Shown here: positions 9,550 through 58,088 of the stretch, in pieces
How the letters are laid out: each line of letters opens with the position of its first letter
Position numbering within the stretch: the stretch's first letter is position 1
The notes under the pieces: generated by a model
Database searches by the model: none
Seen by the model: only the letters and a program-made list of their open reading frames with translations
Told to the model about the DNA's origin: nothing
IMG/VR virus record: IMGVR_UViG_3300010396_000041
Origin: a virus
Lineage: Duplodnaviria; Heunggongvirae; Uroviricota; Caudoviricetes
Reading direction: 5' to 3' (one strand)
DNA: 64,000 bases
Translations under genes and position numbers: made by a program

Positions 9550-9564
9550 ATGCTACGCTACTCA
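9550..9564 (+). promoter_or_regulatory. conserved 15-bp upstream motif ATGCTACGCTACTCA (plus orientation)
   Basis: 36 nt upstream of ATG 9601. One of about 27 copies. Confidence 0.6.
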
Positions 9565-9600
9565 CAGGCTGTCAGATCGGCAGCGCAGAAGGGTCCTGCT

Positions 9601-9930
9601 ATGACGTTGTTCCACATCGAAAACAAGCTCACCAGCGACCGGCACCGCTACGTCCAGTACCACCGCCTCGGCGGGTTGACGTTCTGCATCGACGTCACCT
9701 TCTACCCCGAGGGTATCGAGTACTCGCAGGCAGACATCTCGGTCCTGTCCGAAGGACGCGAGTGGACCGAGCTCGCCGAGTTCACCGCCGACAACTGGCA
9801 CGCCGGAGCCAAGGCCGTCGAAGGCGACGAGCGGATCGCGGTGTTCAAGCAGATCTGCGCGTTCCTCCTCGAAGTCGGCTGCCAGGCCACCGGGCTGATG
9901 GCCGCGACCGCAGCGGAGGACGAGGAGTAG
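9601..9930 (+). CDS. hypothetical protein (109 aa)
   Basis: ATG 9601 follows the motif plus a GAAGGG RBS. Balanced composition (MTLFHIENKLTSDRHRYVQYHRLGG...). Confidence 0.5.
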   Translation: MTLFHIENKLTSDRHRYVQYHRLGGLTFCIDVTFYPEGIEYSQADISVLSEGREWTELAEFTADNWHAGAKAVEGDERIAVFKQICAFLLEVGCQATGLMAATAAEDEE

Positions 9931-10175
9931 TGCGTACCCGGGTGCGCGCCTACCTGGCGCGGGTGATCAAAAGCACGTTCGGGTTCCACGCCCGGGGCGA
10001 CGTCGAGTTCTCCAACGCCGAGGTGGTCAACGGCATGGTCGTGATGACCATGACGATGACCGCGATCAACGCGACGCTGCGGCTGACCCTGAAGCCCGAG
10101 ACCGCGTGGCTGGTCGGCAACCGGCTGAGCGACGCGGGACACGAGGCGAGCAAGGACCGCGATGGCAGCCGGTGA
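9930..10175 (+). CDS. hypothetical protein (81 aa)
   Basis: GTG start overlapping the upstream stop (TAGTG). Real-looking part of ORF 9762..10175 (VRTRVRAYLARVIKSTFGFHARGD...). Confidence 0.45.
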   Translation: MRTRVRAYLARVIKSTFGFHARGDVEFSNAEVVNGMVVMTMTMTAINATLRLTLKPETAWLVGNRLSDAGHEASKDRDGSR

Positions 10176-10338
10176 CGTCTACAGCGTCACCTGGTTAGAA
10201 GAGGACCAGGAATGGGTGGCGACCCACAACGGGTTCCCCTCCCTCTCCTACCTCGCCCCGATGCCGGTGCACGCACTCGCTGGGCTCCAGCGGTTGATCG
10301 CTGACTACCGCAAGGAGCAGGCGCAGCAGCAGAAGTAG
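10162..10338 (+). CDS. hypothetical protein (58 aa)
   Basis: Manual: ATG 10162 to TAG 10336-10338 (MAAGDVYSVTWLEEDQEWVATHNGF...). Below the ORF-track length cutoff. Confidence 0.4.
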   Translation: MAAGDVYSVTWLEEDQEWVATHNGFPSLSYLAPMPVHALAGLQRLIADYRKEQAQQQK

Positions 10339-10345
10339 CGCAACG

Positions 10346-10370
10346 CCCCCGCCCGCCTGGGCGGGGGTTC
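10346..10370 (+). terminator. rho-independent terminator-like hairpin (CCCCCGCCC/GGGCGGGGG)
   Basis: Perfect 9-bp GC stem plus TT, immediately after the stop at 10338. Confidence 0.55.
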
Positions 10371-10393
10371 CTCATCTCAGAGATGGAGGCACC

Positions 10394-10543
10394 ATGACCA
10401 CCCCGCCTAAGAAGCCGCAGTCCGACAGCTACAAGACCCGGCGCGGCAAGGACGCGGTCTATCAGCAGGAGCGGGCGTACAAGAGCTCGCAGCGGGAGCG
10501 GCTGCCGCGCCTGCGTGAGAAGCGCGAGAAGAAGGACAAGTGA
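10394..10543 (+). CDS. hypothetical basic protein (49 aa)
   Basis: Manual: GGAGG RBS then ATG 10394 (MTTPPKKPQSDSYKTRRGKD...). TGATG overlap with the next gene. Confidence 0.4.
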   Translation: MTTPPKKPQSDSYKTRRGKDAVYQQERAYKSSQRERLPRLREKREKKDK

Positions 10544-10797
10544 TGGGGCGCGTCCGTAGCTGGTGGAACGGGTCGATCAAGCACGTTGGCTGGTCTCCGT
10601 GGCATGTCACGAAGGTGGTGTCGGTCACGGTGGAGGTCAACTCTGGCGGGGCGACTCCGCCTGGCCAGCGCGGACGCGTCATTCACTGCGCGATGACTCC
10701 CGAGCGGGCTCGGGTGCTGGCGCTGCTCTTGATGAAGTACGCGATGGAGGCGGAGGCTGAGCAGCGGCGACTTCTGGGTGGTGCCGACCCCGACTAG
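10543..10797 (+). CDS. hypothetical protein (84 aa)
   Basis: ORF 10540..10797. ATG at 10543. Confidence 0.5.
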   Translation: MGRVRSWWNGSIKHVGWSPWHVTKVVSVTVEVNSGGATPPGQRGRVIHCAMTPERARVLALLLMKYAMEAEAEQRRLLGGADPD

Positions 10798-10799
10798 TC

Positions 10800-10814
10800 A
10801 TGCTACGTTGCTCA
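10800..10814 (+). promoter_or_regulatory. conserved upstream motif variant ATGCTACGTTGCTCA
   Basis: Abuts ATG 10816. Confidence 0.5.
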
Positions 10815-10815
10815 C

Positions 10816-11034
10816 ATGACTTCGACAGTGCCCGCCGCCAAGCTCGCCAAGCTCACCACCGCCGCGCTCATCGAGCAGTACGAGATCGCCGTGGCCGACC
10901 GCGTCACCGTATTCGCCGCCGAGGGCTCGAAGCACGGCGGGCACTCCCCGAAGCAGAAGCGCGTCGACCGGATCGTGGACCTGCTCTCCACCCGCGCCGA
11001 TCAGGGAGACGCTGACGCGCTCGCCTGGTTCTAG
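10816..11034 (+). CDS. hypothetical protein (72 aa)
   Basis: ORF track. Motif immediately upstream, hairpin downstream. Confidence 0.55.
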   Translation: MTSTVPAAKLAKLTTAALIEQYEIAVADRVTVFAAEGSKHGGHSPKQKRVDRIVDLLSTRADQGDADALAWF

Positions 11035-11127: not shown

Positions 11128-11319
11128 CTAGACCAGGGCGGGCGCGGGCTTGAAAGCGCCCTCACAGCGCCCCTCGTGCTCCTGACGGGAGCGCACCGCA
11201 TCCGCCCACACCTCGACGTGGTTCACCGTCCACGCCGCCTGGCAGCAGCGGTGACAGATCAACACCCACGGCAGCCGAGGCGGCAGCGTCGCAGTCTCGT
11301 CGTACTCTTCCTCGCTCAT
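11128..11319 (-). CDS. hypothetical Cys/His-containing protein (63 aa)
   Basis: Real part of ORF 11128..11424 from M36 (MSEEEYDETATLPPRLPWVLICHRCCQ...). Upstream part is a wrong-frame R-rich run. Confidence 0.45.
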   Translation of the reverse strand: MSEEEYDETATLPPRLPWVLICHRCCQAAWTVNHVEVWADAVRSRQEHEGRCEGAFKPAPALV

Positions 11320-11765
11320 GCCAACTCCGGTCCATCTCGAAAGATCACGTTCTCGGTAGGCCAGGCGCCGTCCGGCCAGTACTCCACCCGCTTGAGGGAG
11401 CCGTTCTCCTGATACTCGACGCACTTGACCCTAGGGCAGGCGCGGGCGTGGATGCCCTGGCAGTGCTGGCAGGCTTCGCCCTTGTCGAAGTACTCCATCA
11501 CCCGGTCGCGGTCAGCGCCTTCCAGCGCCACCTCGGGCGGCGCCATCGCCCGCAGCGCCATCAGGTAGGAGGCGGCGTCTTCCCCGACCGGGGTGGCCCC
11601 CTTCTCGTATGCCTCGATACGGGCGGGAGAGACCCCTAGGAGCTCCGCAAGCCGAGCGCGCGTGATACCCGCCCCCTCACGGGCTGCGCGCCGCTCCTGC
11701 GCGCTCATAGCGGTCAGCGCGCGATGAGCGACCGACCACTCAGCCAGCGTGTTCAGGACGCTCAC
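11316..11765 (-). CDS. XRE/Cro-CI-type helix-turn-helix transcriptional regulator (149 aa)
   Basis: HTH signature ITRARLAELLGVSPARIEAYEKG. Confidence 0.7.
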   Translation of the reverse strand: MSVLNTLAEWSVAHRALTAMSAQERRAAREGAGITRARLAELLGVSPARIEAYEKGATPVGEDAASYLMALRAMAPPEVALEGADRDRVMEYFDKGEACQHCQGIHARACPRVKCVEYQENGSLKRVEYWPDGAWPTENVIFRDGPELA

Positions 11766-12126: not shown

Positions 12127-12203
12127 TGGTAGCGGTGACGGGGTTCGAACCCGTGCTCTCTGCATTGAAAGTGCAGTGTCTTAGGCCACTAGACGACACC
12201 GCC
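12127..12203 (-). tRNA. tRNA-Glu (anticodon TTC), CCA encoded
   Basis: Manual fold: acceptor GGCGGTG/CACCGCT, anticodon loop CTTTCAA, T-arm ACGGG-TTCGAAC-CCCGT. Confidence 0.65.
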
Positions 12204-12204
12204 G

Positions 12205-12279
12205 TACCCCCGGTCGGACTCGAACCGACGACCCGCGCATTAAGAGTGCGCTGCTCTAGACCAGCTGAGCTACAGAGGC
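12205..12279 (-). tRNA. tRNA-Lys (anticodon CTT)
   Basis: Acceptor GCCTCTG/CGGGGGT (3 G-U pairs), D-arm TAGCTCAGCTGGTCTAGAGC, loop CTCTTAA. Confidence 0.6.
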
Positions 12280-12289
12280 TTGCCTTGCG

Positions 12290-12364
12290 TACCCCGTACC
12301 GGACTTGAACCGGTGTCCTCCGCCTTGAGAGGGCGGCGTCCTAGACCATCTAGACCAACGGGGC
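12290..12364 (-). tRNA. tRNA-Glu (anticodon CTC)
   Basis: Acceptor GCCCCGT/ACGGGGT, loop CTCTCAA, T-loop TTCAAGT. Confidence 0.6.
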
Positions 12365-12381
12365 GCTGTCTGCTACGTGAC

Positions 12382-12687
12382 TCATTCTAGCTCAAAGCCG
12401 AGCGCGCCCGCCACCGCCTTCACCGTCGCACACGGCCAGGCAACCGCGTACTCATCCGGCACTCCGCATGCCGCGCACACCGCCCGCATCGGCCCGTACG
12501 TAGCCAGGTCAGTACCAAAGCCCATCCCGTGCTCCACGCAGTCGTGGATCTCCAGGACCGCCAGCAGCGCATCCACCGCCGCCGAGCACTGCTGGCAGCC
12601 ACAGTCGAACTCGCAGCCTTCACAATGCCCCCGATCGTCCGTCAGCGCTGCCAGCCGCTCACGCAAAGCTTCAACAGTGTTGATCAT
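12382..12687 (-). CDS. hypothetical Cys-rich protein (101 aa)
   Basis: ORF track (HCEGCEFDCGCQQCS...). Confidence 0.55.
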   Translation of the reverse strand: MINTVEALRERLAALTDDRGHCEGCEFDCGCQQCSAAVDALLAVLEIHDCVEHGMGFGTDLATYGPMRAVCAACGVPDEYAVAWPCATVKAVAGALGFELE

Positions 12688-12688
12688 G

Positions 12689-12776
12689 CGGAAGGGGGGA
12701 GGGTCGAACTCCCACGAGTGTTACCTCAAACGCTTTTCGAGAGCGTCGCCGCCGCCATCTATCGGCTGGCCCTTCC
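12689..12776 (-). tRNA. tRNA-Ser (anticodon CGA), class II
   Basis: Acceptor GGAAGGG/CCCTTCC, loop CTCGAAA, long variable arm. Confidence 0.6.
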
Positions 12777-12786
12777 AGGAACTACG

Positions 12787-12861
12787 TACCGTCGGCGAGA
12801 CTCGAACTCGCAACCACCGCCACCTGAAGACGGCGCCTCTACCAGATTGGGCTACGACGGC
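12787..12861 (-). tRNA. tRNA, anticodon read as CAG (identity uncertain; short variable arm, irregular D-stem)
   Basis: Acceptor GCCGTCG/CGACGGT, T-arm GCGAG-TTCGAGT-CTCGC, best loop TTCAGGT. Confidence 0.4.
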
Positions 12862-12862
12862 G

Positions 12863-12945
12863 CGGAGGGCACAGGGATCGAACCTGTGCTGGTGACCCAG
12901 GCCTCTGCTTAGCAAGCAGGCCCCTTACCTCTCGGGCAGCCCTCC
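12863..12945 (-). tRNA. tRNA-Ser (anticodon GCT), class II
   Basis: Acceptor GGAGGGC/GCCCTCC, loop TTGCTAA, variable arm GGCCTGGGTCACCAGC. Confidence 0.6.
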
Positions 12946-14562: not shown

Positions 14563-14577
14563 TGAGTAATGTAGCAT
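14563..14577 (-). promoter_or_regulatory. conserved upstream motif TGAGTAATGTAGCAT (minus orientation)
   Basis: Upstream of ATG 14513. Confidence 0.55.
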
Positions 14578-14601
14578 CAGAACCCTGATCTTGCACGTAG
14601 G

Positions 14602-14677
14602 GCGGGCAGGCGGGACTCGAACCCGCAGAAGTACCACGCCAACTAAGGCGCCGCTCTACCAATTGAGCTACTGCCCG
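14602..14677 (-). tRNA. tRNA with atypical anticodon arm (apparent 6-nt loop TTAGTT); identity unresolved
   Basis: Acceptor CGGGCAG/CTGCCCG, D-arm TAGCTCAATTGGTAGAGC, T-arm GCGGG-TTCGAGT-CCCGC. Confidence 0.45.
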
Positions 14678-14680
14678 ACG

Positions 14681-14753
14681 TGCGCCTGAAGGGACTCGAA
14701 CCCCTGACTCGCCGCTTAGGACGCGGCAGCTCTATCCACTGAGCTACAGACGC
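14681..14753 (-). tRNA. tRNA-Arg (anticodon CCT)
   Basis: Acceptor GCGTCTG/CAGGCGC, loop GTCCTAA. Confidence 0.6.
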
Positions 14754-14758
14754 TTGCG

Positions 14759-14837
14759 TACGCTCGGCGGGAGTCGAACCCGCACCCCGAAGGAGCGGCT
14801 TTTGAGGCCGCCGTGTCTGCCGTTCCACCACGAGCGC
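14759..14837 (-). tRNA. tRNA-Leu (anticodon CAA), class II
   Basis: Loop CTCAAAA, variable arm TCCTTCGGGGT, T-arm GCGGG-TTCGACT-CCCGC. Confidence 0.6.
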
Positions 14838-14843
14838 CAGCGT

Positions 14844-14976
14844 CGGGCAGGGCAGGAGTTGAACCTGCCTCGGCGGGGCCAATCACCGCTGTCAACAACC
14901 GCAGGCCCCTATTCGGCCACTGCCATCCACCAGGACGCACCGGAATCGAACCGGCTACCGCCCACTCTGCCCGACG
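14844..14976 (-). ncRNA. about 132-nt tRNA-like structured element with two T-arm-like hairpins and paired termini GTCGGGCAG/CTGCCCGAC
   Basis: Contains GCAGG-TTCAACT-CCTGC and GCCGG-TTCGATT-CCGGT. No canonical cloverleaf found. Confidence 0.35.
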
Positions 14977-15049
14977 TAGGCGCTGAGAGACTTGAACTCC
15001 CGACATCCGGTTTGTAAGACCGGCGCTCTTCCAACTGAGCTAAGCACCC
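14977..15049 (-). tRNA. tRNA-Val (anticodon TAC)
   Basis: Acceptor GGGTGCT/AGCGCCT, loop CTTACAA. Confidence 0.6.
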
Positions 15050-15169
15050 ATCACCACCCACATTCTTAGCAGCACTTTGCGGGCCGCGCCCCACCATAGA
15101 CCTGGCCACGAAGACCTGGTCACAGGCGAGGTGCGAGTCTGCACCCGGAGGGTGGCCCCACCGTCCCGT

Positions 15170-15242
15170 TGGCGTAGAGGGAATTGCACCCCCGCGCAAC
15201 ACTGCTTATCAGGCAGCTGCTCTACTGCTGAGCTATACGCCT
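15170..15242 (-). tRNA. tRNA-Ile (anticodon GAT) with non-canonical T-loop TGCAATT
   Basis: D-arm TAGCTCAGCAGTAGAGC, loop CTGATAA. Confidence 0.5.
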
Positions 15243-15252
15243 TCGTCGTGCG

Positions 15253-15326
15253 TGGATGTGGGAGGAGTTGAACCTCCGACCCCTGCCTTATCAGGGCAGT
15301 GCTCTCACCACCTGAGCTACACATCC
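15253..15326 (-). tRNA. tRNA-Ile (anticodon GAT)
   Basis: Acceptor GGATGTG/CACATCC, loop CTGATAA. Confidence 0.6.
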
Positions 15327-15415
15327 GGGTGCGGGCGGCCGAGAGCTTCCGCGCGGTAGTCCTCTCGGTATCCGGCCCAGGCTTCGCCATGCACAGCTCA
15401 GCCAGCTTTCCCGCG

Positions 15416-15488
15416 TGGACGCTACAGGATTTGAACCTGCGACCCCCTGCTTGCAAGGCAGGTGCTCTACCAGCTGAGCTAAGCGCCC
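15416..15488 (-). tRNA. tRNA-Ala (anticodon TGC)
   Basis: Acceptor GGGCGCT/AGCGTCC with G3-U70, loop CTTGCAA. Confidence 0.65.
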
Positions 15489-15497
15489 TGGTGTGAC

Positions 15498-15553
15498 GGG
15501 CAGACGTTGCTTCCGTGGATGCGCCGTTCCCGGCTCATCGCCAACGTCTGCCC
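15498..15553 (-). other. 12-bp inverted repeat GGGCAGACGTTG...CAACGTCTGCCC with a 32-nt loop in a tRNA spacer
   Basis: Seen directly. Shares CAGACG with the hairpin at 16583-16620. Confidence 0.4.
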
Positions 15554-15557
15554 ATCG

Positions 15558-15631
15558 TGGCTGGAGGCGGGTTCGAACCGCCGACCCCTCGCTTTTCAGG
15601 CGAGTGCTCGTACCAACTGAGCTATCCAGCC
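15558..15631 (-). tRNA. tRNA-Phe (anticodon GAA)
   Basis: Acceptor GGCTGGA/TCCAGCC, loop CTGAAAA. Confidence 0.65.
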
Positions 15632-15733
15632 ATGCTGCGCCGCCTCTGATTCATGACGGATCGTCCCCCGCTCCTGGAAGGGGTGCCCACGCTGCCACAG
15701 GATCTCCCTGGACAACACAACAGCGGCGCTGCG

Positions 15734-15806
15734 CTGCCCACCGTGGATTCGAACCACGAACCGCCTGATTCAGAGTCAGGTGCGCTGCCAATTGCGCTAG
15801 CGGGCA
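15734..15806 (-). tRNA. tRNA-Gln (anticodon CTG)
   Basis: Loop CTCTGAA, T-arm CGTGG-TTCGAAT-CCACG. Confidence 0.6.
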
Positions 15807-15823
15807 TCGATATCAAGTTGTAG

Positions 15824-15898
15824 AGCTGATGGCCGGACTCGAACCGGCGACCGCCCGATTACGAGTCGGGTGCTCTAGGCCAGCTGAGCTACACCAGC
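15824..15898 (-). tRNA. tRNA-Thr (anticodon CGT)
   Basis: Acceptor GCTGGTG/CATCAGC, loop CTCGTAA. Confidence 0.6.
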
Positions 15899-15899
15899 G

Positions 15900-15972
15900 T
15901 CCGGATGGCAGGACTCGAACCTGCGATCTCCTGGTCCCAAACCAGGCGCCTTTCCAACTAGGCCACATCCAG
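15900..15972 (-). tRNA. tRNA-Pro (anticodon TGG)
   Basis: Anticodon stem CCTGG/CCAGG, loop TTTGGGA. Confidence 0.6.
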
Positions 15973-15995
15973 TCTTGCTATGTTTCTGTACTGCG

Positions 15996-16069
15996 TCGGG
16001 GTAGCCGGACTTGAACCGACGACCTCTTGTCCCCCAGACAAGCGCCCTACCAAGCTGGGCCATACCCCG
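15996..16069 (-). tRNA. tRNA-Pro (anticodon GGG)
   Basis: Acceptor CGGGGTA/TACCCCG, loop CTGGGGG. Confidence 0.6.
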
Positions 16070-16120
16070 GTGGAGCCGAAGGGGGCGGGGTTGCGCGCCC
16101 CGGCGCTTCCCCCCTCGACG

Positions 16121-16193
16121 CTCCCTCGGCAGGGCTCGAACCTGCGACCCACGGATTAACAATCCGTTGCTCTGCCAACTGAGCTACAAGGGA
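16121..16193 (-). tRNA. tRNA-Asn (anticodon GTT)
   Basis: Loop TTGTTAA. Confidence 0.6.
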
Positions 16194-16214
16194 ATGCTAT
16201 GAAGTTGGCAGGCC

Positions 16215-16312
16215 CGTTTCCCCTAACGCTGGTACGGCCAGCGCAAACAGGGCACGAACTGAGTTCGGACCTCAGCCTTCCGGCGTTCAAACCCCACGGG
16301 CCAACAGGGTCA
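16215..16312 (-). ncRNA. tRNA-like element without canonical T-arm (paired ends GGCCCG/CGGGCC, anticodon-like hairpin CTGAG-GTCCGAA-CTCAG reading CCG)
   Basis: Manual folding only. Confidence 0.3.
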
Positions 16313-16322
16313 TCGCCTTAGT

Positions 16323-16402
16323 GGCAGGAGCAGGATTCGAACCTGCGAAGCGTGAGCGATCGGTTTACAGCCGACTTCCATTGGCCACTCGGACACCCTG
16401 CC
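16323..16402 (-). tRNA. tRNA-Tyr (anticodon GTA), class II
   Basis: Acceptor GGCAGGG/TCCTGCC, loop CTGTAAA, variable arm CGCTCACGCTTCG. Confidence 0.6.
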
Positions 16403-16422
16403 ATTGCTGTTCAGTTGTAACG

Positions 16423-16493
16423 AGTCGCTGGCCGGATTTGAACCGGCGTCCACGGCTTTGCAGGCCGTTGCCTCGCCTCTCGGCCACAGCGAC
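16423..16493 (-). tRNA. tRNA-Cys (anticodon GCA)
   Basis: Acceptor GTCGCTG/CAGCGAC, loop CTGCAAA. Confidence 0.6.
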
Positions 16494-16503
16494 ACCTCTT
16501 GCG

Positions 16504-16576
16504 AGCCGAGGACGGGACTTGAACCCGCAACATCCTGATTGGAAGTCAGGCTCCCTACCAATTGGGCGACCTCGGC
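16504..16576 (-). tRNA. tRNA-Gly (anticodon TCC)
   Basis: Acceptor GCCGAGG/CCTCGGC, loop CTTCCAA. Confidence 0.65.
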
Positions 16577-16582
16577 GAGGTG

Positions 16583-16620
16583 AAGCAGACGTTCGCTGGG
16601 GTCAGCTGTCCTGGCTATCC
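16583..16620 (-). other. 10-bp inverted repeat GAAGCAGACG...CGTCTGCTTC in a tRNA spacer
   Basis: Seen directly. Confidence 0.35.
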
Positions 16621-16630
16621 GTCTGCTTCG

Positions 16631-16704: not shown

Positions 16705-16788
16705 TTGTGATGGCAGCACGGTGATCAGTGAACTGACGGAACAGCAGCGCCCTGGGATCTCTCCAGGTTCTACTCCGTACTGCCTTCG

Positions 16789-23154: not shown

Positions 23155-23169
23155 TGAGTAGCGTAGCAT
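23155..23169 (-). promoter_or_regulatory. conserved upstream motif TGAGTAGCGTAGCAT
   Basis: 32 nt upstream of ATG 23122. Confidence 0.6.
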
Positions 23170-23668: not shown

Positions 23669-23683
23669 GTGAGCAATGTAGCA
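23669..23683 (-). promoter_or_regulatory. conserved motif variant TGAGCAATGTAGCAC
   Basis: 34 nt upstream of ATG 23634. Confidence 0.5.
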
Positions 23684-23711
23684 CAACCGACCGGGGTGCG
23701 CACCGGTCCTG

Positions 23712-24447: not shown

Positions 24448-24462
24448 TGAGTAATATAGCAT
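24448..24462 (-). promoter_or_regulatory. conserved motif TGAGTAATATAGCAT
   Basis: 39 nt upstream of ATG 24408. Confidence 0.55.
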
Positions 24463-25056: not shown

Positions 25057-25071
25057 TGAGTAGCGTAGCAT
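25057..25071 (-). promoter_or_regulatory. conserved motif TGAGTAGCGTAGCAT
   Basis: 35 nt upstream of ATG 25021. Confidence 0.6.
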
Positions 25072-25626: not shown

Positions 25627-25641
25627 TGAGTAATGTAGCAT
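25627..25641 (-). promoter_or_regulatory. conserved motif TGAGTAATGTAGCAT
   Basis: 40 nt upstream of ATG 25586. Confidence 0.6.
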
Positions 25642-26120: not shown

Positions 26121-26135
26121 TGAGTAATGTAGCAT
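26121..26135 (-). promoter_or_regulatory. conserved motif TGAGTAATGTAGCAT
   Basis: 38 nt upstream of ATG 26082. Confidence 0.6.
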
Positions 26136-26754: not shown

Positions 26755-26769
26755 GGAGTAGCGTAGCAT
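26755..26769 (-). promoter_or_regulatory. conserved motif variant GGAGTAGCGTAGCAT
   Basis: 34 nt upstream of ATG 26720. Confidence 0.55.
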
Positions 26770-27225: not shown

Positions 27226-27240
27226 TGAGTAGCGTAGCAT
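27226..27240 (-). promoter_or_regulatory. conserved motif TGAGTAGCGTAGCAT
   Basis: 37 nt upstream of ATG 27189. Confidence 0.6.
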
Positions 27241-30409: not shown

Positions 30410-30424
30410 TGAGTAACGTAGCAC
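30410..30424 (-). promoter_or_regulatory. conserved motif TGAGTAACGTAGCAC
   Basis: 40 nt upstream of ATG 30369. Confidence 0.55.
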
Positions 30425-30953: not shown

Positions 30954-30968
30954 TGAGTAGCGTAGCAT
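30954..30968 (-). promoter_or_regulatory. conserved motif TGAGTAGCGTAGCAT
   Basis: 40 nt upstream of ATG 30914. Confidence 0.6.
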
Positions 30969-35050: not shown

Positions 35051-35065
35051 AAAGTAGCGTAGCAC
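35051..35065 (-). promoter_or_regulatory. conserved motif variant AAAGTAGCGTAGCAC heading the Y-RNA array/rsr unit
   Basis: Only copy followed by noncoding RNAs rather than an RBS. Confidence 0.5.
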
Positions 35066-36748: not shown

Positions 36749-36763
36749 TGAGTAATGTAGCAC
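36749..36763 (-). promoter_or_regulatory. conserved motif TGAGTAATGTAGCAC
   Basis: 41 nt upstream of ATG 36708. Confidence 0.55.
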
Positions 36764-38431: not shown

Positions 38432-38446
38432 TGAGTAACGTAGCAT
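38432..38446 (-). promoter_or_regulatory. conserved motif TGAGTAACGTAGCAT
   Basis: 36 nt upstream of ATG 38396. Confidence 0.6.
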
Positions 38447-38723: not shown

Positions 38724-38738
38724 CGAGTAACGTAGCAT
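38724..38738 (-). promoter_or_regulatory. conserved motif variant CGAGTAACGTAGCAT
   Basis: 41 nt upstream of ATG 38683. Confidence 0.55.
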
Positions 38739-45090: not shown

Positions 45091-45105
45091 GGAGTAGCGT
45101 AGCAT
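45091..45105 (-). promoter_or_regulatory. conserved motif variant GGAGTAGCGTAGCAT
   Basis: Only 16 nt upstream of ATG 45075, the shortest spacer of the family. Confidence 0.5.
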
Positions 45106-46115: not shown

Positions 46116-46130
46116 GGAGTAGCGTAGCAT
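46116..46130 (-). promoter_or_regulatory. conserved motif variant GGAGTAGCGTAGCAT
   Basis: 38 nt upstream of ATG 46078. Confidence 0.55.
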
Positions 46131-47147: not shown

Positions 47148-47162
47148 GTGAGTACAGTAGCA
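47148..47162 (-). promoter_or_regulatory. conserved motif variant TGAGTACAGTAGCAT
   Basis: 40 nt upstream of ATG 47108. Confidence 0.5.
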
Positions 47163-47210
47163 TGACCGACAGGCAGGCCACACCCCCTGCCTGAACAGGG
47201 GGAATGGGGA

Positions 47211-52646: not shown

Positions 52647-52661
52647 TGAGTAGCGTAGCAC
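52647..52661 (-). promoter_or_regulatory. conserved motif TGAGTAGCGTAGCAC (leftward member of a divergent pair)
   Basis: Back-to-back with 52706-52720. Confidence 0.55.
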
Positions 52662-52705: not shown

Positions 52706-52720
52706 ATGCTACGCTACTCA
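52706..52720 (+). promoter_or_regulatory. conserved motif ATGCTACGCTACTCA (rightward member of a divergent pair)
   Basis: 31 nt upstream of GTG 52752 (queE). Confidence 0.6.
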
Positions 52721-52751: not shown

Positions 52752-53495
52752 GTGGACAACCTTCTCGTCAACGAGATCTTCGGACCCACCATTCAAGGAG
52801 AGGGCGCAGCCGCTGGCAGGCACTGCCTGTTCGTGCGCCTGGCCCTGTGCAACCTCGAATGCTCCTGGTGCGACACCCCCTACACCTGGGCGCTGACCCC
52901 GCAGAAGGCAGCCAAGCACGCCAGCGGCAAGCAGTACGACAAGACCACCCAGGTACGCGAGATGACTCCGGGCCAGGTCATCGACGCACTCACCAACCTG
53001 TGGAACATCAAGGTCAGTCCGACCATGGTGGTGGTCTCCGGCGGCGAACCGCTGATGCAGCGCAATCAGCTTCCCGAGCTGGCGCGCAGGCTTCATGACC
53101 TGGGCTGCCCGCTGCACATCGAAACTGCGGGCACGCTCATTCCCCCGAGTGAGCTCACCGACGGGGTCGCTCAGTACAACGTCTCGCCCAAGCTGGCCAA
53201 CAGCGGCAATGTGTTGACCAAGCGGTTCAAGCCCTCCGTGCTCGCTCACTTCGCCAGCCTCGATCAGGCGTGGTTCAAGTTCGTCGCGACCTCTCCCGCT
53301 GACCTCGATGAGATCGATGGGATTGTGGCGATGACCGGCATTCGTGCCGATCGGGTCATGATCATGCCTGAGGGGGTGACCCCTGGCGGGAACCTGGCCG
53401 TGGGCAGGGCAATCGCCGATGCTGTGATCGGCCGTGGCTTTGGTCTGACCTTGAGGAGCCATATCTTGCTTTGGGGCGATGAGAGAGGGCGCTAG
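52752..53495 (+). CDS. queE: 7-carboxy-7-deazaguanine synthase, radical SAM (247 aa)
   Basis: CNLECSWCDTPYTW cluster. SGGEPL. Confidence 0.85.
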   Translation: MDNLLVNEIFGPTIQGEGAAAGRHCLFVRLALCNLECSWCDTPYTWALTPQKAAKHASGKQYDKTTQVREMTPGQVIDALTNLWNIKVSPTMVVVSGGEPLMQRNQLPELARRLHDLGCPLHIETAGTLIPPSELTDGVAQYNVSPKLANSGNVLTKRFKPSVLAHFASLDQAWFKFVATSPADLDEIDGIVAMTGIRADRVMIMPEGVTPGGNLAVGRAIADAVIGRGFGLTLRSHILLWGDERGR

Positions 53496-53534
53496 AGAAA
53501 GCTGGGCGGGCCTCTTTGCGGAAGCCCGCCCGCC

Positions 53535-53549
53535 ATGCTACGCTACTCG
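53535..53549 (+). promoter_or_regulatory. conserved motif variant ATGCTACGCTACTCG
   Basis: 63 nt upstream of GTG 53613. Confidence 0.5.
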
Positions 53550-55102: not shown

Positions 55103-55117
55103 AGAGTGACGTAGCAT
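55103..55117 (-). promoter_or_regulatory. conserved-motif-like sequence AGAGTGACGTAGCAT in the minus orientation, upstream of a + gene (anomalous orientation)
   Basis: Seen directly. No convincing minus-strand gene to its left. Confidence 0.3.
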
Positions 55118-56401: not shown

Positions 56402-56450
56402 GCGCTCCTAGCCCCCGGTTGTACCGATCGACCAGAGACCAGGAGTGATC

Positions 56451-56975
56451 ATGAACCAGGACCAGGCGGCAGCCCTGCTCGCCTACATCTCGGCCATCGA
56501 CCGCCGCCCGATCCAGGACGGCGACTCGGTGCTATGGGCCGATCTGCTTGACGACATTCCGTATGACCCGGCCAAGGCGGCGGTGCGGGCTCACTACCGC
56601 GAAGAGTCGCGGTGGATTACTCCGGCAGAGGTTCGGCGGCGGGCGCTGGCGAGCCGAGCCGAGGCGACTCGCCGCCCCCTACCGCCCGGGCCCGAAGCCG
56701 TGCCAGACGCTGACCCAGACGATGAGCCCGGATACAGGCGGGCGCTGGCTGAAGGCCGCTGGCGCGAACCCGACCCGGAGGCAAGACCGCGCCCGGTCGC
56801 CGAGCTTCTGGCGGGCTACGGCGCAGTCACCGTGATCCCGCCAGAAGAGCCCTCCGGCCCGCTGGCGGTGCCCTGCCCGATGCGCTCGTGCGGCGCGAAG
56901 GCGGGCGAGGCCTGCCGGAATATGTTCGGGCGGGAAAGGGACCCGCATCCGGTACGACGCCGCGACCCTGGGTGA
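56451..56975 (+). CDS. hypothetical protein (174 aa)
   Basis: ORF 56445..56975. ATG 56451 with AGGAGTG RBS. Confidence 0.5.
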   Translation: MNQDQAAALLAYISAIDRRPIQDGDSVLWADLLDDIPYDPAKAAVRAHYREESRWITPAEVRRRALASRAEATRRPLPPGPEAVPDADPDDEPGYRRALAEGRWREPDPEARPRPVAELLAGYGAVTVIPPEEPSGPLAVPCPMRSCGAKAGEACRNMFGRERDPHPVRRRDPG

Positions 56976-57028
56976 TCTTGACCATTGGTCAATGATTTGG
57001 CTACACTGCTCCCGAAAGGAGGGGCGCC

Positions 57029-57463
57029 ATGGAAAAGCCCGTTACCTCAAAGGCCTGTAGTCGGTGCGGGAAGATGCGTCCCGCCAACCAGTACCGAGTG
57101 ATCCGTTCCCGCAAGACCGGGAAAACCCGGCTCCACTCGTGGTGTATGCAATGCCAGAGCGAATACATGGCATTGAAATGGGAGGCCACTGATACGCCCG
57201 CGCGGCGCACCAGTGAAGCCAAGCGAGTGCGCGCCTACCAGAAGGACCCGAAGGTAGCCGCACGGCGCTCCGCACGCTCGGGAGCCCAGTACCGGGCTCT
57301 CGCAGCGCTGCGGGTGCGTCACCCTGATGAGTACGAGGTCTTGCGCACCCGCCTCGGTGCACGCTCGTACCCGGCTCTCGCCGCTCTGCGCGAAGCGCAC
57401 CGCGACGAATACCAGCAGCTGTACGACGAGCAGCTGCGGGTGGCCGGAATTGAGCTGGCGTAA
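57029..57463 (+). CDS. zinc-ribbon protein (144 aa)
   Basis: CSRCGK...CMQCQ. GAAAGGAGGGG RBS. Confidence 0.5.
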   Translation: MEKPVTSKACSRCGKMRPANQYRVIRSRKTGKTRLHSWCMQCQSEYMALKWEATDTPARRTSEAKRVRAYQKDPKVAARRSARSGAQYRALAALRVRHPDEYEVLRTRLGARSYPALAALREAHRDEYQQLYDEQLRVAGIELA

Positions 57464-57674
57464 GTCAGCCGCGTGCCTCGCTGTCGAGGAGAAATGGATC
57501 TTCAATGAGATCCGCCCCGACAGCGAGGACGCATATCGTGCCGGTAGAATCTGTGCTGATTGTCCAGTCCTCCGTGAGTGCTACCAGTGGGCATTGGACG
57601 AGAAACATTACGAGGGAATCGCCGCCGGTTGGATCTGGCTCGATTCGGCATGGCATCGGAGGCAGCGGTGTTGA
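57450..57674 (+). CDS. WhiB-like Fe-S transcription factor (74 aa, TTG start)
   Basis: Frame of ORF 57327..57674. C-x19-C-x2-C-x5-C (CLAV...ICADCPVLREC). No ATG/GTG in frame after the upstream stop. Confidence 0.5.
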   Translation: MSWRKSAACLAVEEKWIFNEIRPDSEDAYRAGRICADCPVLRECYQWALDEKHYEGIAAGWIWLDSAWHRRQRC

Positions 57675-58042
57675 AGCGTAAGTCTCGGCGCCCCACGGGC
57701 CCGAGCGTCGGGGTACGCGAAGAGGTCTGGGAGCGCGCCGGGGGGTACTGCGAGAGGTGCGGGAAGGCGATCGGCACCTCTGCTATGTCAGTGCATCACC
57801 GGCGCCCCCGCCGCATGGGGGGCACCACTGATCCGACGGTGAACACCCCCGCCAATCTGGCGATCTTGTGCGGGTCGGGCACCACGGGGTGTCACGGGGA
57901 GATCGAAAGCCACCGCACCGAGGCGTACGCCGACGGCTGGCTGCTGCATGCAGGACAGGACCCTGCTGACGTTCCGGTGCGCCTGCGCGGCGGGCCGATG
58001 ATCTTCCTGACCCCCGACGGCGGGTACCGCTCTCTGGTCTAA
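57650..58042 (+). CDS. HNH endonuclease (130 aa)
   Basis: ORF 57578..58042 from M25. CERCGK...HHRRPRRMGG...N...CGSGTTGCHGEIE. Confidence 0.75.
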   Translation: MASEAAVLKRKSRRPTGPSVGVREEVWERAGGYCERCGKAIGTSAMSVHHRRPRRMGGTTDPTVNTPANLAILCGSGTTGCHGEIESHRTEAYADGWLLHAGQDPADVPVRLRGGPMIFLTPDGGYRSLV

Positions 58043-58043
58043 A

Positions 58044-58066
58044 GGGTGGTGCGTTGAGCCACCCGC
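58044..58066 (+). terminator. hairpin GGGTGGTGCGTTGAGCCACCC
   Basis: Follows the stop at 58042. Confidence 0.45.
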
Positions 58067-58073
58067 TTGCGCT

Positions 58074-58088
58074 ATGCTACGCTACTCC
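58074..58088 (+). promoter_or_regulatory. conserved motif variant ATGCTACGCTACTCC
   Basis: 34 nt upstream of ATG 58123. Confidence 0.55.

What the first reader, a model, noticed from the sequence alone, without database searches (positions are those of the whole stretch)
9550..58088. About 27 copies of one 15-bp asymmetric motif, orientation-locked to the downstream gene: a phage-specific promoter or operator family
Seen in sequence. TGAGTA[AG][CT]GTAGCAT on the + strand (that is, ATGCTAC[GA][CT]TACTCA in gene orientation) recurs 16-41 nt upstream of minus-strand start codons at 14563, 23155, 23669, 24448, 25057, 25627, 26121, 26755, 27226, 30410, 30954, 35051, 36107, 36749, 38432, 38724, 45091, 46116, 47148 and 52647. 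It recurs in the opposite orientation upstream of + genes at 9550, 10800, 52706, 53535 and 58074, with spacing up to 63 nt. Each copy is followed by a strong Shine-Dalgarno, and each gene usually ends in a GC hairpin, so many genes look like single-gene transcription units. It contains a TAnnnT-like element (TACGCT/TACTCA) but no -35 at 17 bp. It is absent before the structural genes (terminase, portal, fibre) and before the repeat-protein gene, which instead has a GTGATAATG box. One copy (35051) heads the noncoding Y-RNA array rather than an RBS, which argues for transcription rather than translation initiation. Inference: either a promoter consensus for a dedicated sigma/RNAP state, or a repressor stoperator-like site as in L5-type mycobacteriophages.
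Basis: partly seen in the sequence, partly recalled or inferred. Interest (0 to 1): 0.85.

Follow-up and report, generated by a model that had tools for sequence, protein, structure and literature searches.

The report
Repeated host-type promoter cassette in an actinophage
A 15-base motif repeated about 32 times in this uncultivated phage of a high-GC Gram-positive bacterium is most likely the core of a strong promoter read by the host RNA polymerase. It comes packaged with a small RNA hairpin and a ribosome-binding site in front of early genes. It is a tidy example of a known phage strategy, not a new mechanism.

Summary
ATGCTACRYTACTCA occurs 10 times exactly and 26 times at ≤2 mismatches, against 0.12 expected. 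Twenty-four copies are intergenic, co-oriented with a gene, and 13-63 nt from its start.

The 15-mer reads as an extended -10 promoter: TGn + TACnnT + an RCTCA discriminator. A pyrimidine-purine step marks +1, 7 nt after the hexamer. In one copy the ATG of a leaderless ORF sits exactly there.

Most transcripts would begin with a 5-7 bp hairpin supported by covariation, usually with a 5-nt loop starting in A. A Shine-Dalgarno site and the start codon follow at +32 to +42.

The motif heads ORFan, DNA-modification, recombination and Ro/Y-RNA genes, never structural or lysis genes. Related phages keep it (92.5% identity against ~73% in the flanks).

No sigma factor or RNA polymerase gene was found in ~93 of the 106 kb. 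The host is an actinobacterium, probably Nocardioidaceae.

Best reading: an early/middle promoter family read by host sigma-A. Its closest analogue is the promoter-stem-loop (PeSL) cassettes of T4-like phages. The stoperator and dedicated-RNAP readings are not supported. No transcription start site has been measured.

The parts
9550..9564 (+). motif copy, 0 mismatches (ATGCTACGCTACTCA). Predicted +1 at 9566, leader hairpin 9568-9584, start codon 9601.
   Evidence: Diverges from the 877-aa/portal late operon.
10800..10814 (+). motif copy, 1 mismatch. -35-like GTGCCG at 10781-10786 (spacer 17). Predicted +1 at 10816 is the A of the ATG of ORF 10816-11034, so the gene is leaderless.
   Evidence: (the collection's gene caller picks the same start)
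14563..14577 (-). motif copy, 0 mismatches. -35-like GTGCAA at 14596-14591 (spacer 17). +1 at 14561, start codon 14513.
23155..23169 (-). motif copy, 0 mismatches. -35-like GTGCTG at 23188-23183. +1 at 23153, hairpin 23152-23138, start codon 23122. Preceded by a terminator-like GC stem with a TTT tail.
23670..23684 (-). motif copy, 2 mismatches (GTGCTACATTGCTCA). -35-like GTGCGC. +1 at 23668, hairpin 23667-23653, start codon 23634. The orthologous copy in L141 (19430) keeps the same variant.
24448..24462 (-). motif copy, 1 mismatch. -35-like GTGCGA (spacer 18). +1 at 24446, hairpin 24445-24431, start codon 24408.
25057..25071 (-). motif copy, 0 mismatches. -35-like GTGCCA at 25091-25086 (spacer 18). 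+1 at 25055, hairpin 25054-25040, start codon 25021.
25627..25641 (-). motif copy, 0 mismatches. -35-like GTGCGC (spacer 18). +1 at 25625, hairpin 25623-25609, start codon 25580.
26121..26135 (-). motif copy, 0 mismatches. -35-like GTGCCA (spacer 18). +1 at 26119, hairpin 26117-26101, start codon 26082.
26755..26769 (-). motif copy, 1 mismatch. -35-like GTGCCG (spacer 17) lying inside a strong stem-loop. +1 at 26753, hairpin 26751-26737, start codon 26720.
27226..27240 (-). motif copy, 0 mismatches. -35-like GTGCCA (spacer 18). +1 at 27224, hairpin 27222-27206, start codon 27189. Preceded by a long terminator stem with a TCTTT tail.
30410..30424 (-). motif copy, 1 mismatch. -35-like GTGCGT (spacer 17). 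+1 at 30408, hairpin 30404-30388, start codon 30369.
30954..30968 (-). motif copy, 0 mismatches. -35-like GTGCCA (spacer 18). +1 at 30952, hairpin 30949-30933, start codon 30914.
35051..35065 (-). degenerate copy, 3 mismatches (GTGCTACGCTACTTT; TGn and TACGCT intact). No ORF follows. It heads the YrlA-like RNA modules (about 34880-34190) and the Ro/TROVE gene 34129-32516.
   Evidence: 16.4 bits
36107..36121 (-). motif copy, 1 mismatch. -35-like GTGCCA (spacer 17). +1 at 36105, hairpin 36104-36088, start codon 36069.
36749..36763 (-). motif copy, 1 mismatch. -35-like GTGCGG (spacer 18). +1 at 36747, hairpin 36745-36731, start codon 36699.
38432..38446 (-). motif copy, 0 mismatches. A polyG/polyC stem brackets the -35 region (GGGGGGTTCCCCTCCCCC). 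+1 at 38430, hairpin 38429-38415, start codon 38396. The ortholog in L141 (2596) has TTGCCA-N17.
38724..38738 (-). motif copy, 1 mismatch. -35-like GTGCCG (spacer 18). +1 at 38722, hairpin 38720-38702, start codon 38683.
45091..45105 (-). motif copy, 1 mismatch. Short 15-nt leader with an SD and no hairpin. Start codon 45075.
46116..46130 (-). motif copy, 1 mismatch. -35-like GTGCCA (spacer 17). Hairpin 46112-46098, start codon 46078. Preceded by a terminator.
47149..47163 (-). motif copy, 2 mismatches (ATGCTACTGTACTCA). +1 at 47147, hairpin 47146-47128, start codon 47108.
52647..52661 (-). motif copy, 1 mismatch. Leftward member of a back-to-back divergent pair. Hairpin 52645-52628, start codon 52598.
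52706..52720 (+). motif copy, 0 mismatches. Rightward member of the divergent pair. Heads the QueE-like radical-SAM gene (start 52752).
53535..53549 (+). motif copy, 1 mismatch. -35-like TTGCGG at 53516-53521 (spacer 17). Start codon 53613, the longest leader (63 nt).
58074..58088 (+). motif copy, 1 mismatch. -35-like TTGAGC at 58054-58059 (spacer 18). +1 at 58090, hairpin 58090-58108, start codon 58123.
12370..12384 (+). orphan variant CTGCTACGTGACTCA. It lacks the -7 T and faces into the 3' end of a minus-strand gene, next to the tRNAs. Probably decayed or non-promoter.
   Evidence: 18.4 bits
55103..55117 (-). orphan variant ATGCTACGTCACTCT. It lacks the -7 T and lies in the gap before the replication-initiator gene, pointing the opposite way.
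   Evidence: 16.3 bits
16969..16983 (+). variant ATATTACGCTACTCG (no TG) between the head of the tRNA array and a 78-aa gene. Its orientation is opposite to both neighbours. Conserved in relative L141 (12266).
   Evidence: 14.3 bits

Best explanation
The 15-mer is the core of a family of strong promoters of the principal-sigma type (sigma-A/HrdB-like, sigma-70 group 1). The host actinobacterial RNA polymerase uses them to transcribe the phage's early and middle genes as many short units.

Reading ATGCTACRYTACTCA in gene orientation:
- TG is the extended -10 'TGn'.
- TACRYT is the -10 hexamer (TAnnnT).
- RCTCA is a 5-nt conserved discriminator.
- The next two bases are a pyrimidine-purine step, and the purine is +1, seven nt after the hexamer.
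- A weaker -35 hexamer (nTGCCn, like TTGACA/nTGACn) lies 17-18 bp upstream.

Most transcripts start with 1-3 free nucleotides and then a 5-7 bp GC-rich hairpin, usually with a 5-nt purine-rich loop that begins with A. A strong SD and the start codon follow 32-42 nt after the motif.

Inferred: the hairpin protects the 5' end from 5'-end-dependent decay and/or insulates the SD. Terminator-like stems upstream of many copies separate the units. The whole module (terminator, promoter, leader hairpin, SD, small gene) behaves like a portable cassette.

Shown: the sequence anatomy, statistics, covariation, conservation and gene context. Inferred: the polymerase, the actual transcription start sites, the timing and the hairpin's role.
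For: 1. Over-representation and placement. 26 copies against 0.12 expected. 25 of 26 are intergenic (P 2e-21), and 24 are co-oriented and 13-63 nt from a start codon. The PWM score distribution is bimodal.

2. Promoter anatomy. TG is invariant; T and A of the hexamer are invariant and the final T is present in 24 of 26. The only freely variable positions are the 'nn' of TACnnT. In the distant relative L223 the hexamers are TACGCT, TACAAT and TACGAT. [GT]TG[CA] lies at a 17/18-bp spacer in 18 of 26 copies (P 1e-21), and the Y-R step is present in 18 of 26 and 37 of 51. Relatives have better -35 hexamers: TTGCCA-N17, TTACCA-N17, TTGACG-N19.

3. A leaderless ORF starts exactly at the predicted +1 (10816).

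4. A degenerate copy heads non-coding YrlA-like RNAs.

5. Match to measured host-type promoters. S. lividans: TAnnnT, nTGACn, spacer 16.5-17.4, hexamer-to-TSS 6.3 nt, purine +1 (PMC8079986). P. acnes (Propionibacteriales): TAnnnT. The strongest selected mycobacterial promoter, A37, has TGGTACACT 6 bp before a purine +1 (PMC1616969).

6. No sigma or RNAP Pfam family, and no DFDGD-type motif on a coding strand, in ~93 of the 106 kb.

7. Leader hairpin. The 30 nt after the motif fold to -9.7 against -5.8 kcal/mol for shuffles (z -8.4). 79% of cells are paired against 31-55% for slid controls, and 0 of 500 shuffles reach the covariation score. Orthologs show compensatory changes.

8. Conservation. 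Orthologous copies are 92.5% identical in the motif against 74% and 73% in the flanks.

9. Gene class. The motif heads ORFans, Que genes, a gene cluster leading to the RecE/T-like genes, and Ro/Y RNA. It never heads portal, TerL, capsid, fibre or lysis genes.
Against: There is no experimental TSS and no binding data. The host is not cultivated.

About 10 bits of conservation lie at positions that sigma-A contacts do not obviously explain: C at -13, C at -10, and RCTC at -6 to -3. Something else may read them, such as a phage cofactor or a regulator.

The -35-like hexamer in this phage is mostly GTGCCn, which matches only 3-4 of the 6 positions of TTGACA.

About 13 kb of the genome, inside the structural module, was not seen. 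Large proteins without annotation (877 aa, 675 aa, the portal extension) could hide an unrecognised polymerase or factor.

My shuffles in Python were mononucleotide shuffles.
Confidence: 0.7

Rival explanations
1. The motif is a promoter class that needs a phage-encoded specificity factor on the host RNA polymerase. The factor could be an unrecognised sigma, a sigma appropriator, or the phage WhiB-family protein bound to sigma-A region 4. It would read the invariant positions outside the usual sigma-A contacts, making this a 'middle' class, as with T4 MotA/AsiA promoters.
For: The near-invariance of C(-13), C(-10) and RCTC(-6 to -3), also in relatives, exceeds what ordinary host promoters show. 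A WhiB-family gene lies at 57327-57674, downstream of an ordinary TTGACC-N18-TACACT promoter. A triple-HTH protein with sub-threshold Sigma70_r4 similarity ends the rightward arm. Other gaps carry ordinary sigma-70-like promoters without the family signature, so two promoter classes exist.
Against: Every element needed for unaided sigma-A recognition is present: TGn, TAnnnT, a -35-like hexamer and the correct spacings. The SELEX-derived mycobacterial promoter TGGTACACT shows that TGnTACnnT alone is very strong. No bona fide sigma gene was found in ~93 kb. The motif also heads the divergent intergenic regions from which the first transcription would be expected.
Confidence: 0.15
2. The motif is an asymmetric operator or 'stoperator' bound by a phage repressor. 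It would block initiation or elongation in an orientation-dependent way, as in L5-type (cluster A) mycobacteriophages. It could overlap promoters.
For: The site is asymmetric, about 15 bp, present in >20 copies, intergenic, and locked to the direction of transcription, as described for stoperators (PMC9283540). Two XRE-type HTH proteins are encoded, at 11316-11765 and 59544-60074.
Against: Copies keep a fixed register with a -35-like hexamer, a Y-R step, a leader hairpin and the start codon, which a roadblock site does not need. None lies in the late, structural or lysis genes, where stoperators also occur. No integrase, and no protein annotated as a cluster-A-type repressor, appeared in ~93 kb of Pfam tables. 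With 24 tRNAs and a DNA-modification cluster, the genome looks lytic. The variable positions are exactly the 'nn' of TAnnnT.
Confidence: 0.07
3. The motif is the promoter of a phage-encoded non-canonical RNA polymerase, either single-subunit T7/N4-like or a virion-packaged enzyme. Such promoters are typically ~17-23 bp, asymmetric and almost invariant.
For: The high information content (~24 bits over 15 bp) and a superficial likeness to the T7 promoter (TACGACTCA against TACGCTACTCA; my own recollection). Large unannotated proteins sit in the structural module: 877 aa, the 1400-aa portal fusion, and 675 aa. About 13 kb of the genome was not seen.
Against: No RNA_pol family and no catalytic DFDGD-type motif on a coding strand was found in ~93 kb. 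The conserved -35-like element at 17/18 bp and the TGn-TAnnnT layout are features of sigma-dependent promoters. The variation sits at the 'nnn' positions.
Confidence: 0.05
4. The motif acts in RNA, as a processing site or translation enhancer such as the cluster K start-associated sequences, and not in DNA.
For: It always lies shortly upstream of start codons and next to a conserved RNA hairpin.
Against: A separate SD is present, and the distance to the start varies from 13 to 63 nt, whereas SAS sit 3-7 bp from the start in the SD position (PMC3203893). The consensus fold does not pair the motif with anything. One copy heads non-coding RNAs. One copy would lie entirely outside a leaderless mRNA. 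Terminator-like stems lie between the upstream gene and the motif in many units.
Confidence: 0.03

Closest known systems
PeSL (promoter-early stem-loop) cassettes of T4-like phages (phi1/RB49, PST, nt-1; PMC2839356, PMC4122927)
   Same: Both have dozens of copies per genome of a conserved composite module: a strong host sigma-70-type promoter, a GC-rich (often polyG/polyC) stem-loop, then an SD and start codon. Both sit mainly upstream of small ORFan or accessory genes and avoid the core structural modules. Both have terminator function between units. Here too, stems bracket the -35 region in about half the copies, and orthologous gene-plus-promoter cassettes sit at different genome positions in a relative.
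   Different: The phage lineage and host phylum are unrelated (high-GC actinophage). The conserved block is only 15 bp (extended -10 plus discriminator), not ~100 bp. The most regular hairpin lies downstream of +1 as a 5' leader structure with covarying stems. Recombination or mini-circle formation was not tested here.
Principal-sigma (SigA/HrdB) extended -10 promoters of Actinomycetota, including SigA-like promoters predicted in mycobacteriophages (e.g. cluster O, PMC4351075)
   Same: TGn + TAnnnT, an nTGACn-like -35 at ~17 bp, a purine +1 at 6-7 nt after the hexamer, and frequent leaderless starts (PMC8079986, PMC3848588, PMC1616969, PMC4351075).
   Different: Host promoters and the 8-9 promoters per cluster O genome are individually diverse. 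Here >=32 copies share an almost invariant 15-mer that includes discriminator bases not known to be specified by sigma-A.
Cluster A mycobacteriophage stoperators (L5 gp71-type repressor sites; PMC9283540, PMC6550527)
   Same: A short asymmetric site in more than 20 copies, intergenic, with orientation tied to the direction of transcription.
   Different: Stoperators are repressor-binding roadblocks spread over the whole genome of temperate phages. This motif has promoter geometry, is missing from the late genes, and no matching repressor or integrase was seen.
Cluster K start-associated sequences (SAS/ESAS; PMC3203893)
   Same: A repeated asymmetric 13-bp-class motif restricted to non-structural genes, in one orientation, sometimes with an adjacent inverted repeat.
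   Different: SAS lie 3-7 bp from the start codon, contain the SD core, and are proposed to act in translation. This motif lies ~37 nt upstream with its own separate SD.

Membership tests
sigma-70 group 1 (SigA/HrdB-type) extended -10 promoter | -10 hexamer TAnnnT with conserved T(-12), A(-11), T(-7) | tested here: met
   T and A are present in 26/26 copies and the final T in 24/26. The middle positions vary. Relatives have TACAAT and TACGAT.
sigma-70 group 1 (SigA/HrdB-type) extended -10 promoter | TGn immediately upstream of the hexamer | tested here: met
   TG is present in 26/26 copies at -15/-14. The same form, TGGTACACT, occurs in the selected mycobacterial promoter A37.
sigma-70 group 1 (SigA/HrdB-type) extended -10 promoter | -35 hexamer related to TTGACA/nTGACn at a 16-19 bp spacer | tested here: met
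   [GT]TG[CA] lies at a 17/18-bp spacer in 18/26 copies, P 1e-21. It is mostly GTGCCn here; relatives have TTGCCA, TTACCA and TTGACG. Eight copies lack it, which is acceptable for extended -10 promoters.
sigma-70 group 1 (SigA/HrdB-type) extended -10 promoter | transcription starts at a purine 5-7 nt downstream of the hexamer | tested here: inconclusive
   Sequence proxies only: a Y-R step in 18/26 and 37/51 copies, and the ATG of a leaderless ORF exactly at the predicted +1. No 5'-end data.
sigma-70 group 1 (SigA/HrdB-type) extended -10 promoter | recognised and melted by host holoenzyme carrying the principal sigma | not testable with these tools
   Needs in vitro transcription or ChIP. Indirect support: no phage sigma or RNAP gene in ~93 of 106 kb.
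PeSL-type composite promoter/stem-loop cassette | many copies of a conserved strong sigma-70-like promoter joined to a GC-rich stem-loop and ending in SD + start codon | tested here: met
   >=32 copies in the genome. A leader hairpin occurs in 38/51 copies. Stems lie over the -35 region (z -3.4). An SD plus start codon lies at +32 to +42.
PeSL-type composite promoter/stem-loop cassette | preferential association with ORFans and accessory genes, avoidance of core structural modules | tested here: met
   Most downstream proteins have no Pfam family. No copy lies in the portal, capsid, TerL, fibre or lysis regions.
PeSL-type composite promoter/stem-loop cassette | mediates recombination or shuffling of the flanked genes (mini-circles, indels between close relatives) | not tested
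   Only a hint: orthologous cassettes sit at non-syntenic positions in L141.
PeSL-type composite promoter/stem-loop cassette | sequence homology to the T4-like PeSL elements | tested here: not met
   The consensus, GC content and phage lineage all differ. This is an analogue, not a homologue.
Cluster A stoperator / asymmetric repressor site | sites distributed through the whole genome, including late/structural operons | tested here: not met
   No copy lies in the late genes of the window, in the 3.1 kb to the left, or in the lysis/fibre region.
Cluster A stoperator / asymmetric repressor site | a cognate immunity repressor and a temperate lifestyle (integrase) | tested here: inconclusive
   No integrase/recombinase family appears in the Pfam tables for ~93 kb. 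Two XRE HTH proteins exist, but nothing links them to the site.
Cluster K start-associated sequence | located 3-7 bp upstream of the start codon, in the SD position | tested here: not met
   Median distance is 37 nt, and a separate SD is present (definition).
Single-subunit phage RNAP promoter (T7/N4-like) | the phage encodes the cognate RNA polymerase | tested here: not met
   No RNA_pol family or catalytic signature in ~93 of 106 kb. 13 kb were not seen.

The most novel reading that the evidence does not exclude
The positions that sigma-A is not known to specify (C-13, C-10, RCTC at -6 to -3) could be read by a phage-encoded factor riding on host RNA polymerase. The phage WhiB-family protein bound to sigma-A region 4 is one candidate; an unrecognised appropriator is another. 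The A-first pentaloop hairpin at the 5' end of nearly every transcript could be a protein-binding element, boxB-like, that lets polymerase read through the terminators between cassettes. Together these would form a phage-specific transcription programme (promoter class plus antitermination tag) not yet described for actinobacteriophages.
Probability: 0.15. Interest if true: 0.65.

Novelty: new member of a known kind. Interest (0 to 1): 0.35.

Why it matters
The finding gives a clean, statistically strong example of how a large uncultivated actinophage (~106 kb, probably infecting Nocardioidaceae) organises early expression. It uses more than 30 near-identical host-type promoters, each fused to a 5' hairpin and an SD, in front of small ORFan genes.

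Uses:
- The 15-mer marks the non-structural (presumed early/middle) gene set. It can be used to annotate transcription units and leaderless starts in related metagenomic phages.
- The module (about 70 bp from the -35 element to the start codon) is a ready-made strong expression cassette to try in high-GC Gram-positive hosts.
- It extends the PeSL idea of portable promoter/stem-loop cassettes flanking ORFans from T4-like phages of Gram-negative hosts to an actinophage, suggesting convergent genome design.
- The invariant discriminator offers a testable question about what tunes open-complex behaviour on actinobacterial RNA polymerase.

Tried and rejected
- Megablast of 20 kb against deposited phages found nothing. 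There is no cultured close relative: TerL is at most 47.5% identical, Ro at most 51%.
- Exact 15-mer scans of IMG/VR and of 185,579 genomes gave mostly single chance hits. Only L006/L223 and the Marmoricola MAG contig proved related. Full-text search for the sequence strings returned 0 papers.
- The 304-aa motif-headed protein has no relatives in IMG/VR. The metagenome scan with the AAA ATPase returned only 37%-identical loci.
- More distant TerL relatives (49-73% identity) carry neither the motif nor an obvious substitute repeat in the 20 kb sampled.
- The generic E. coli-tuned promoter/terminator scan misses the family, because TACGCT scores 3/6 against TATAAT, and it under-calls terminators.
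- Mini-ORF idea (ATG CTA CGC TAC TCA TAG): rejected. Many copies start with GTG or CTG, there is no SD, and the stop is not conserved.
- Pairing of the motif's GCTAC with a downstream GTAGC: rejected as a conserved structure. The register is inconsistent, there is no covariation with the R/Y positions, and RNAalifold does not predict it.
- Second hexamer TACTCA as the -10: rejected. It would put the -35-like element at 22/23 bp, and the leaderless ATG would no longer coincide with +1.
- Sequence search of the 877-aa and 675-aa proteins, the portal extension, and the 316-aa triple-HTH protein against the PDB found nothing useful.

Full report
**1. The observation**

In gene orientation the motif is ATGCTACRYTACTCA. 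It occurs 10 times exactly (0 expected) and 26 times with at most 2 mismatches (0.12 expected). 23669 and 47148 are off by one. 35051 is a 3-mismatch copy.

I called genes with a codon-usage model trained on the window. Where they can be compared, these calls agree with the gene calls stored for the source contigs.

- 25 of 26 copies are intergenic, although 87% of the window is coding or tRNA (P 2e-21).
- 24 of 26 point at a start codon 13-63 nt away, median 37.
- A PWM scan is bimodal. Twenty-four sites score >=20.5 bits, and all are intergenic and co-oriented. Five weak sites remain: 12370, 35051, 55103, 16969 and 36916.

**2. What genome this is**

The window has 65% GC. It carries:
- 24 tRNAs;
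- a portal fusion protein and a large terminase;
- a Ro/TROVE protein about 50% identical to those of Streptomyces and Gordonia phages;
- a 7-deazaguanine DNA-modification cluster: FolE, QueD, QueC, a TGT-like protein and QueE;
- RecE/RecT-like genes;
- a WhiB-family gene at 57327-57674.

There is no close deposited relative.

Exact-protein look-ups place the window on a circularly assembled genome of about 106.4 kb from soil metagenomes. A near-identical 15-kb contig is binned into a Marmoricola (Nocardioidaceae, Propionibacteriales) MAG. This is only a weak host hint, because that contig holds phage genes only. WhiB and the leaderless gene design fit an actinobacterial host.

Using two homology searches to obtain look-up handles, I read the genome out to window-equivalent 90.3 kb. 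Seven more copies lie in the rightward non-structural arm, at window-equivalent 64603, 67820, 69980, 73434, 78713, 79811 and 80364. None lies in the lysis or tail-fibre genes, or in the 3.1 kb of capsid genes to the left. That gives at least 32 copies, all outside the late genes.

**3. Anatomy around the motif**

Base counts over the copies show:
- an invariant TG;
- an invariant T, A and C, then two variable bases, then T: TACRYT;
- ACTCA.

So the 15-mer reads as TGn + TAnnnT + a discriminator.

Upstream, [GT]TG[CA] starts 19 or 20 nt before the motif in 18 of 26 copies (background 1.6% per position, P 1e-21). This is a hexamer such as GTGCCA with a 17 or 18 bp spacer to the -10 hexamer. Relatives have hexamers closer to consensus: TTGCCA-N17, TTACCA-N17, TTGACG-N19.

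The two bases after the motif are pyrimidine-purine in 18 of 26 copies, and in 37 of 51 distinct copies pooled with relatives. This puts +1 seven nt after the hexamer.

At 10800 this predicted +1 (10816) is the A of the ATG of a 72-aa ORF with no SD. The collection's gene caller chose the same start. It is a leaderless gene, as is common in Actinomycetota.

**4. The leader**

- The 30 nt after the motif fold more stably than shuffles (-9.7 against -5.8 kcal/mol, z -8.4). They also fold more stably than the equivalent region of motif-less genes (P 2e-5).
- In an alignment of 29 copies, a 5-bp helix is paired in 79% of cells, against 31-55% for slid controls. Four of its five pairs show double changes, and 0 of 500 shuffles reach the covariation score.
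- Over 51 copies, 38 have a hairpin of at least 5 bp that begins 0-6 nt after +1 (mostly 1-3 nt). 29 of the 38 have a 5-nt loop, and the loop begins with A in 34 of 38.
- Orthologs show compensatory changes, for example GGTGGTC/GATCACC against GGCGGTC/GATCGCC.
- The consensus fold does not pair the motif itself with anything. The 15-mer therefore acts as sequence and the hairpin as structure.
- An SD and the start codon follow, mostly at +32 to +42.

Upstream flanks are also structured (z -5.5). About half show GC stems with T-rich tails that look like terminators. In about half, a stem (sometimes polyG/polyC) brackets the -35 region (z -3.4).

**5. Conservation**

- The closest IMG/VR relative, L141 (TerL 86% identical), has 8 copies in 21 kb.
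- A 107-kb relative, L226 (AAA ATPase 89% identical), has 6 copies in 21.5 kb.
- A more distant 115-kb phage, L223, has a looser version, TGCTAC-(GC/AA/GA)-T-(A/G)CTC.
- Phages with 49-73% TerL identity have none in the sampled 20 kb.
- Across eight orthologous pairs the 15-mer is 92.5% identical, against 74% and 73% in the flanks. Changes fall on the weakly conserved positions.
- Orthologous gene-plus-promoter units lie at different genome positions in L141.

**6. Interpretation**

The layout matches measured principal-sigma promoters of Actinomycetota:
- S. lividans: TAnnnT in 89% of promoters, nTGACn at -35, spacer 16.5-17.4, hexamer-to-TSS distance 6.3 nt, purine +1 (PMC8079986).
- P. acnes, in the same order as the putative host: TAnnnT (PMC3848588).
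- The strongest in vitro-selected mycobacterial promoter has the extended -10 TGGTACACT, 6 bp before a purine +1 (PMC1616969). This is the same TGnTACnnT form.

No sigma, RNAP or integrase family appears in my Pfam and PHROG scans or in the precomputed Pfam tables for about 93 of the 106 kb. No DFDGD-type motif lies on a coding strand.

The most likely mechanism is therefore host sigma-A holoenzyme initiating at these sites early in infection.

The role of the 5' hairpin is inferred from established knowledge. 5'-terminal stem-loops with few unpaired 5' nucleotides protect mRNAs from 5'-end-dependent decay (Emory, Bouvet and Belasco 1992, and the other work listed in PMC3997798).

The degenerate copy at 35051 precedes the YrlA-like modules (Rfam E 5.5e-9 and 3.7e-5, below the gathering score) and the Ro gene. 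This supports a role in transcription rather than translation.

**7. What remains unexplained**

About 10 bits of conservation lie outside known sigma-A contacts: C at -13, C at -10, and RCTC at -6 to -3. These positions are also conserved in the relatives. This leaves room for a phage cofactor or an overlapping regulator site. Candidates are the WhiB protein and the 316-aa triple-HTH protein with sub-threshold Sigma70_r4 similarity at the end of the rightward arm.

Other gaps hold ordinary sigma-70-like promoters without the family signature:
- TTGACA-N17-AATAGT at about 22.05 kb, heading the packaging operon;
- TGATAATGT at about 29.8 kb;
- TTGACC-N18-TACACTGCTCC at about 57.0 kb, a degenerate family member.

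So at least two promoter flavours coexist.

**8. Comparison with known systems**

The closest analogue is the PeSL cassette of T4-like phages. These are about 50 copies per genome of a strong sigma-70-like promoter joined to a polyG/polyC stem-loop and ending in an SD and start codon. They lie mostly upstream of ORFans, and they act as terminators and as recombination points (PMC2839356, PMC4122927). The present family is an analogue, not a homologue.

- Cluster A stoperators share asymmetry and orientation. They differ in distribution, in geometry, and in needing a repressor.
- Cluster K start-associated sequences sit 3-7 bp from the start codon in the SD position, which this motif does not.
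- Cluster O mycobacteriophages have 8-9 predicted SigA-like promoters, some of them leaderless, but no invariant family.

**9. Verdict**

The feature is real and well-defined. The 'dedicated sigma/RNAP' and 'stoperator' parts are not supported. It is a new member of a known kind: a repeated host-type early promoter/stem-loop cassette, found here in an uncultivated actinophage. Interest is moderate. All functional statements await 5'-end mapping and transcription assays.

Noticed in passing
window 34190-34880 (-) and 32516-34129 (-): Four to five tandem YrlA-like (bacterial Y RNA-like, tRNA-mimic) modules sit directly upstream of a Ro/TROVE+VWA gene. Each is flanked by repeated stems GACGGwTACTTC ... 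CCGTCGnCGATTTGATCTC. Rfam YrlA hits have E 5.5e-9 (34598-34710) and 3.7e-5 (34206-34267), both below the gathering score. An RlaP nucleotidyltransferase (39425-40108) and a metallophosphoesterase (40105-40695) lie nearby.
   Followed up: partly
window 47211-50116 (-) and 52752-53495 (+): A 7-deazaguanine DNA-modification gene set: FolE, QueD, QueC, a TGT/DpdA-like protein and QueE. The phage DNA is probably modified at G. That could affect recognition of the TG and G-containing promoter positions.
   Followed up: partly
window 57327-57674 (+): A WhiB-family gene (Pfam E 2.4e-11), missed by my first gene call. It lies downstream of an ordinary TTGACC-N18-TACACT promoter at about 56.98-57.03 kb. 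WhiB proteins bind sigma-A region 4, so this is a possible modulator of host polymerase.
   Followed up: partly
window 10816-11034 (+): A leaderless 72-aa ORF. Its ATG coincides with the predicted +1 of the 10800 motif copy.
   Followed up: yes
window 16969-16983 (+); L141 12266 (-): The variant ATATTACGCTACTCR (no TG) is conserved in two phages, between the head of the tRNA array and a small gene, and oriented against both neighbours. Its opposite strand reads TAATAT and might be the tRNA-array promoter.
   Followed up: no
window 12370-12384 (+) and 55103-55117 (-): Two orphan copies share the same change, GCTACGT[G/C]ACTC, which loses the -7 T. They point antisense or away from genes. The one at 55.1 kb lies in the gap before the replication-initiator gene.
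   Followed up: no
window 12127-12945 and 14600-16864 (-): 24 tRNA genes in two arrays. One has an odd anticodon loop (14600-14677).
   Followed up: no
window 2598-6800 (-), 6895-9528 (-), 27731-29758 (-): A portal protein fused to an extension of about 900 aa (1400 aa in all). Also proteins of 877 aa and 675 aa with no Pfam family, no informative PHROG family and no PDB sequence match.
   Followed up: partly
L227 11579-12529 (+), outside the window (window-equivalent about 81.4-82.4 kb): The last gene of the rightward arm encodes a 316-aa protein with three HTH repeats. It has sub-threshold Sigma70_r4 similarity (E 2e-4, 21.3 bits against a 24.1-bit cut-off) and faces the leftward lysis and tail genes. 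It is a candidate late-gene regulator.
   Followed up: partly
window 22033-22061 (-) and about 29.8 kb (-): Ordinary sigma-70-like promoters without the family signature. TTGACA-N17-AATAGT sits in an unusually AT-rich patch ahead of the operon that leads to the terminase. TGATAATGT sits ahead of the 675-aa gene.
   Followed up: partly
L141 vs window (e.g. L141 19392-19443 vs window 23632-23683; L141 2571-2647 vs window 38471-38398): Orthologous promoter-plus-gene cassettes occupy different genome positions in the two phages. This suggests cassette shuffling, as proposed for PeSLs.
   Followed up: no
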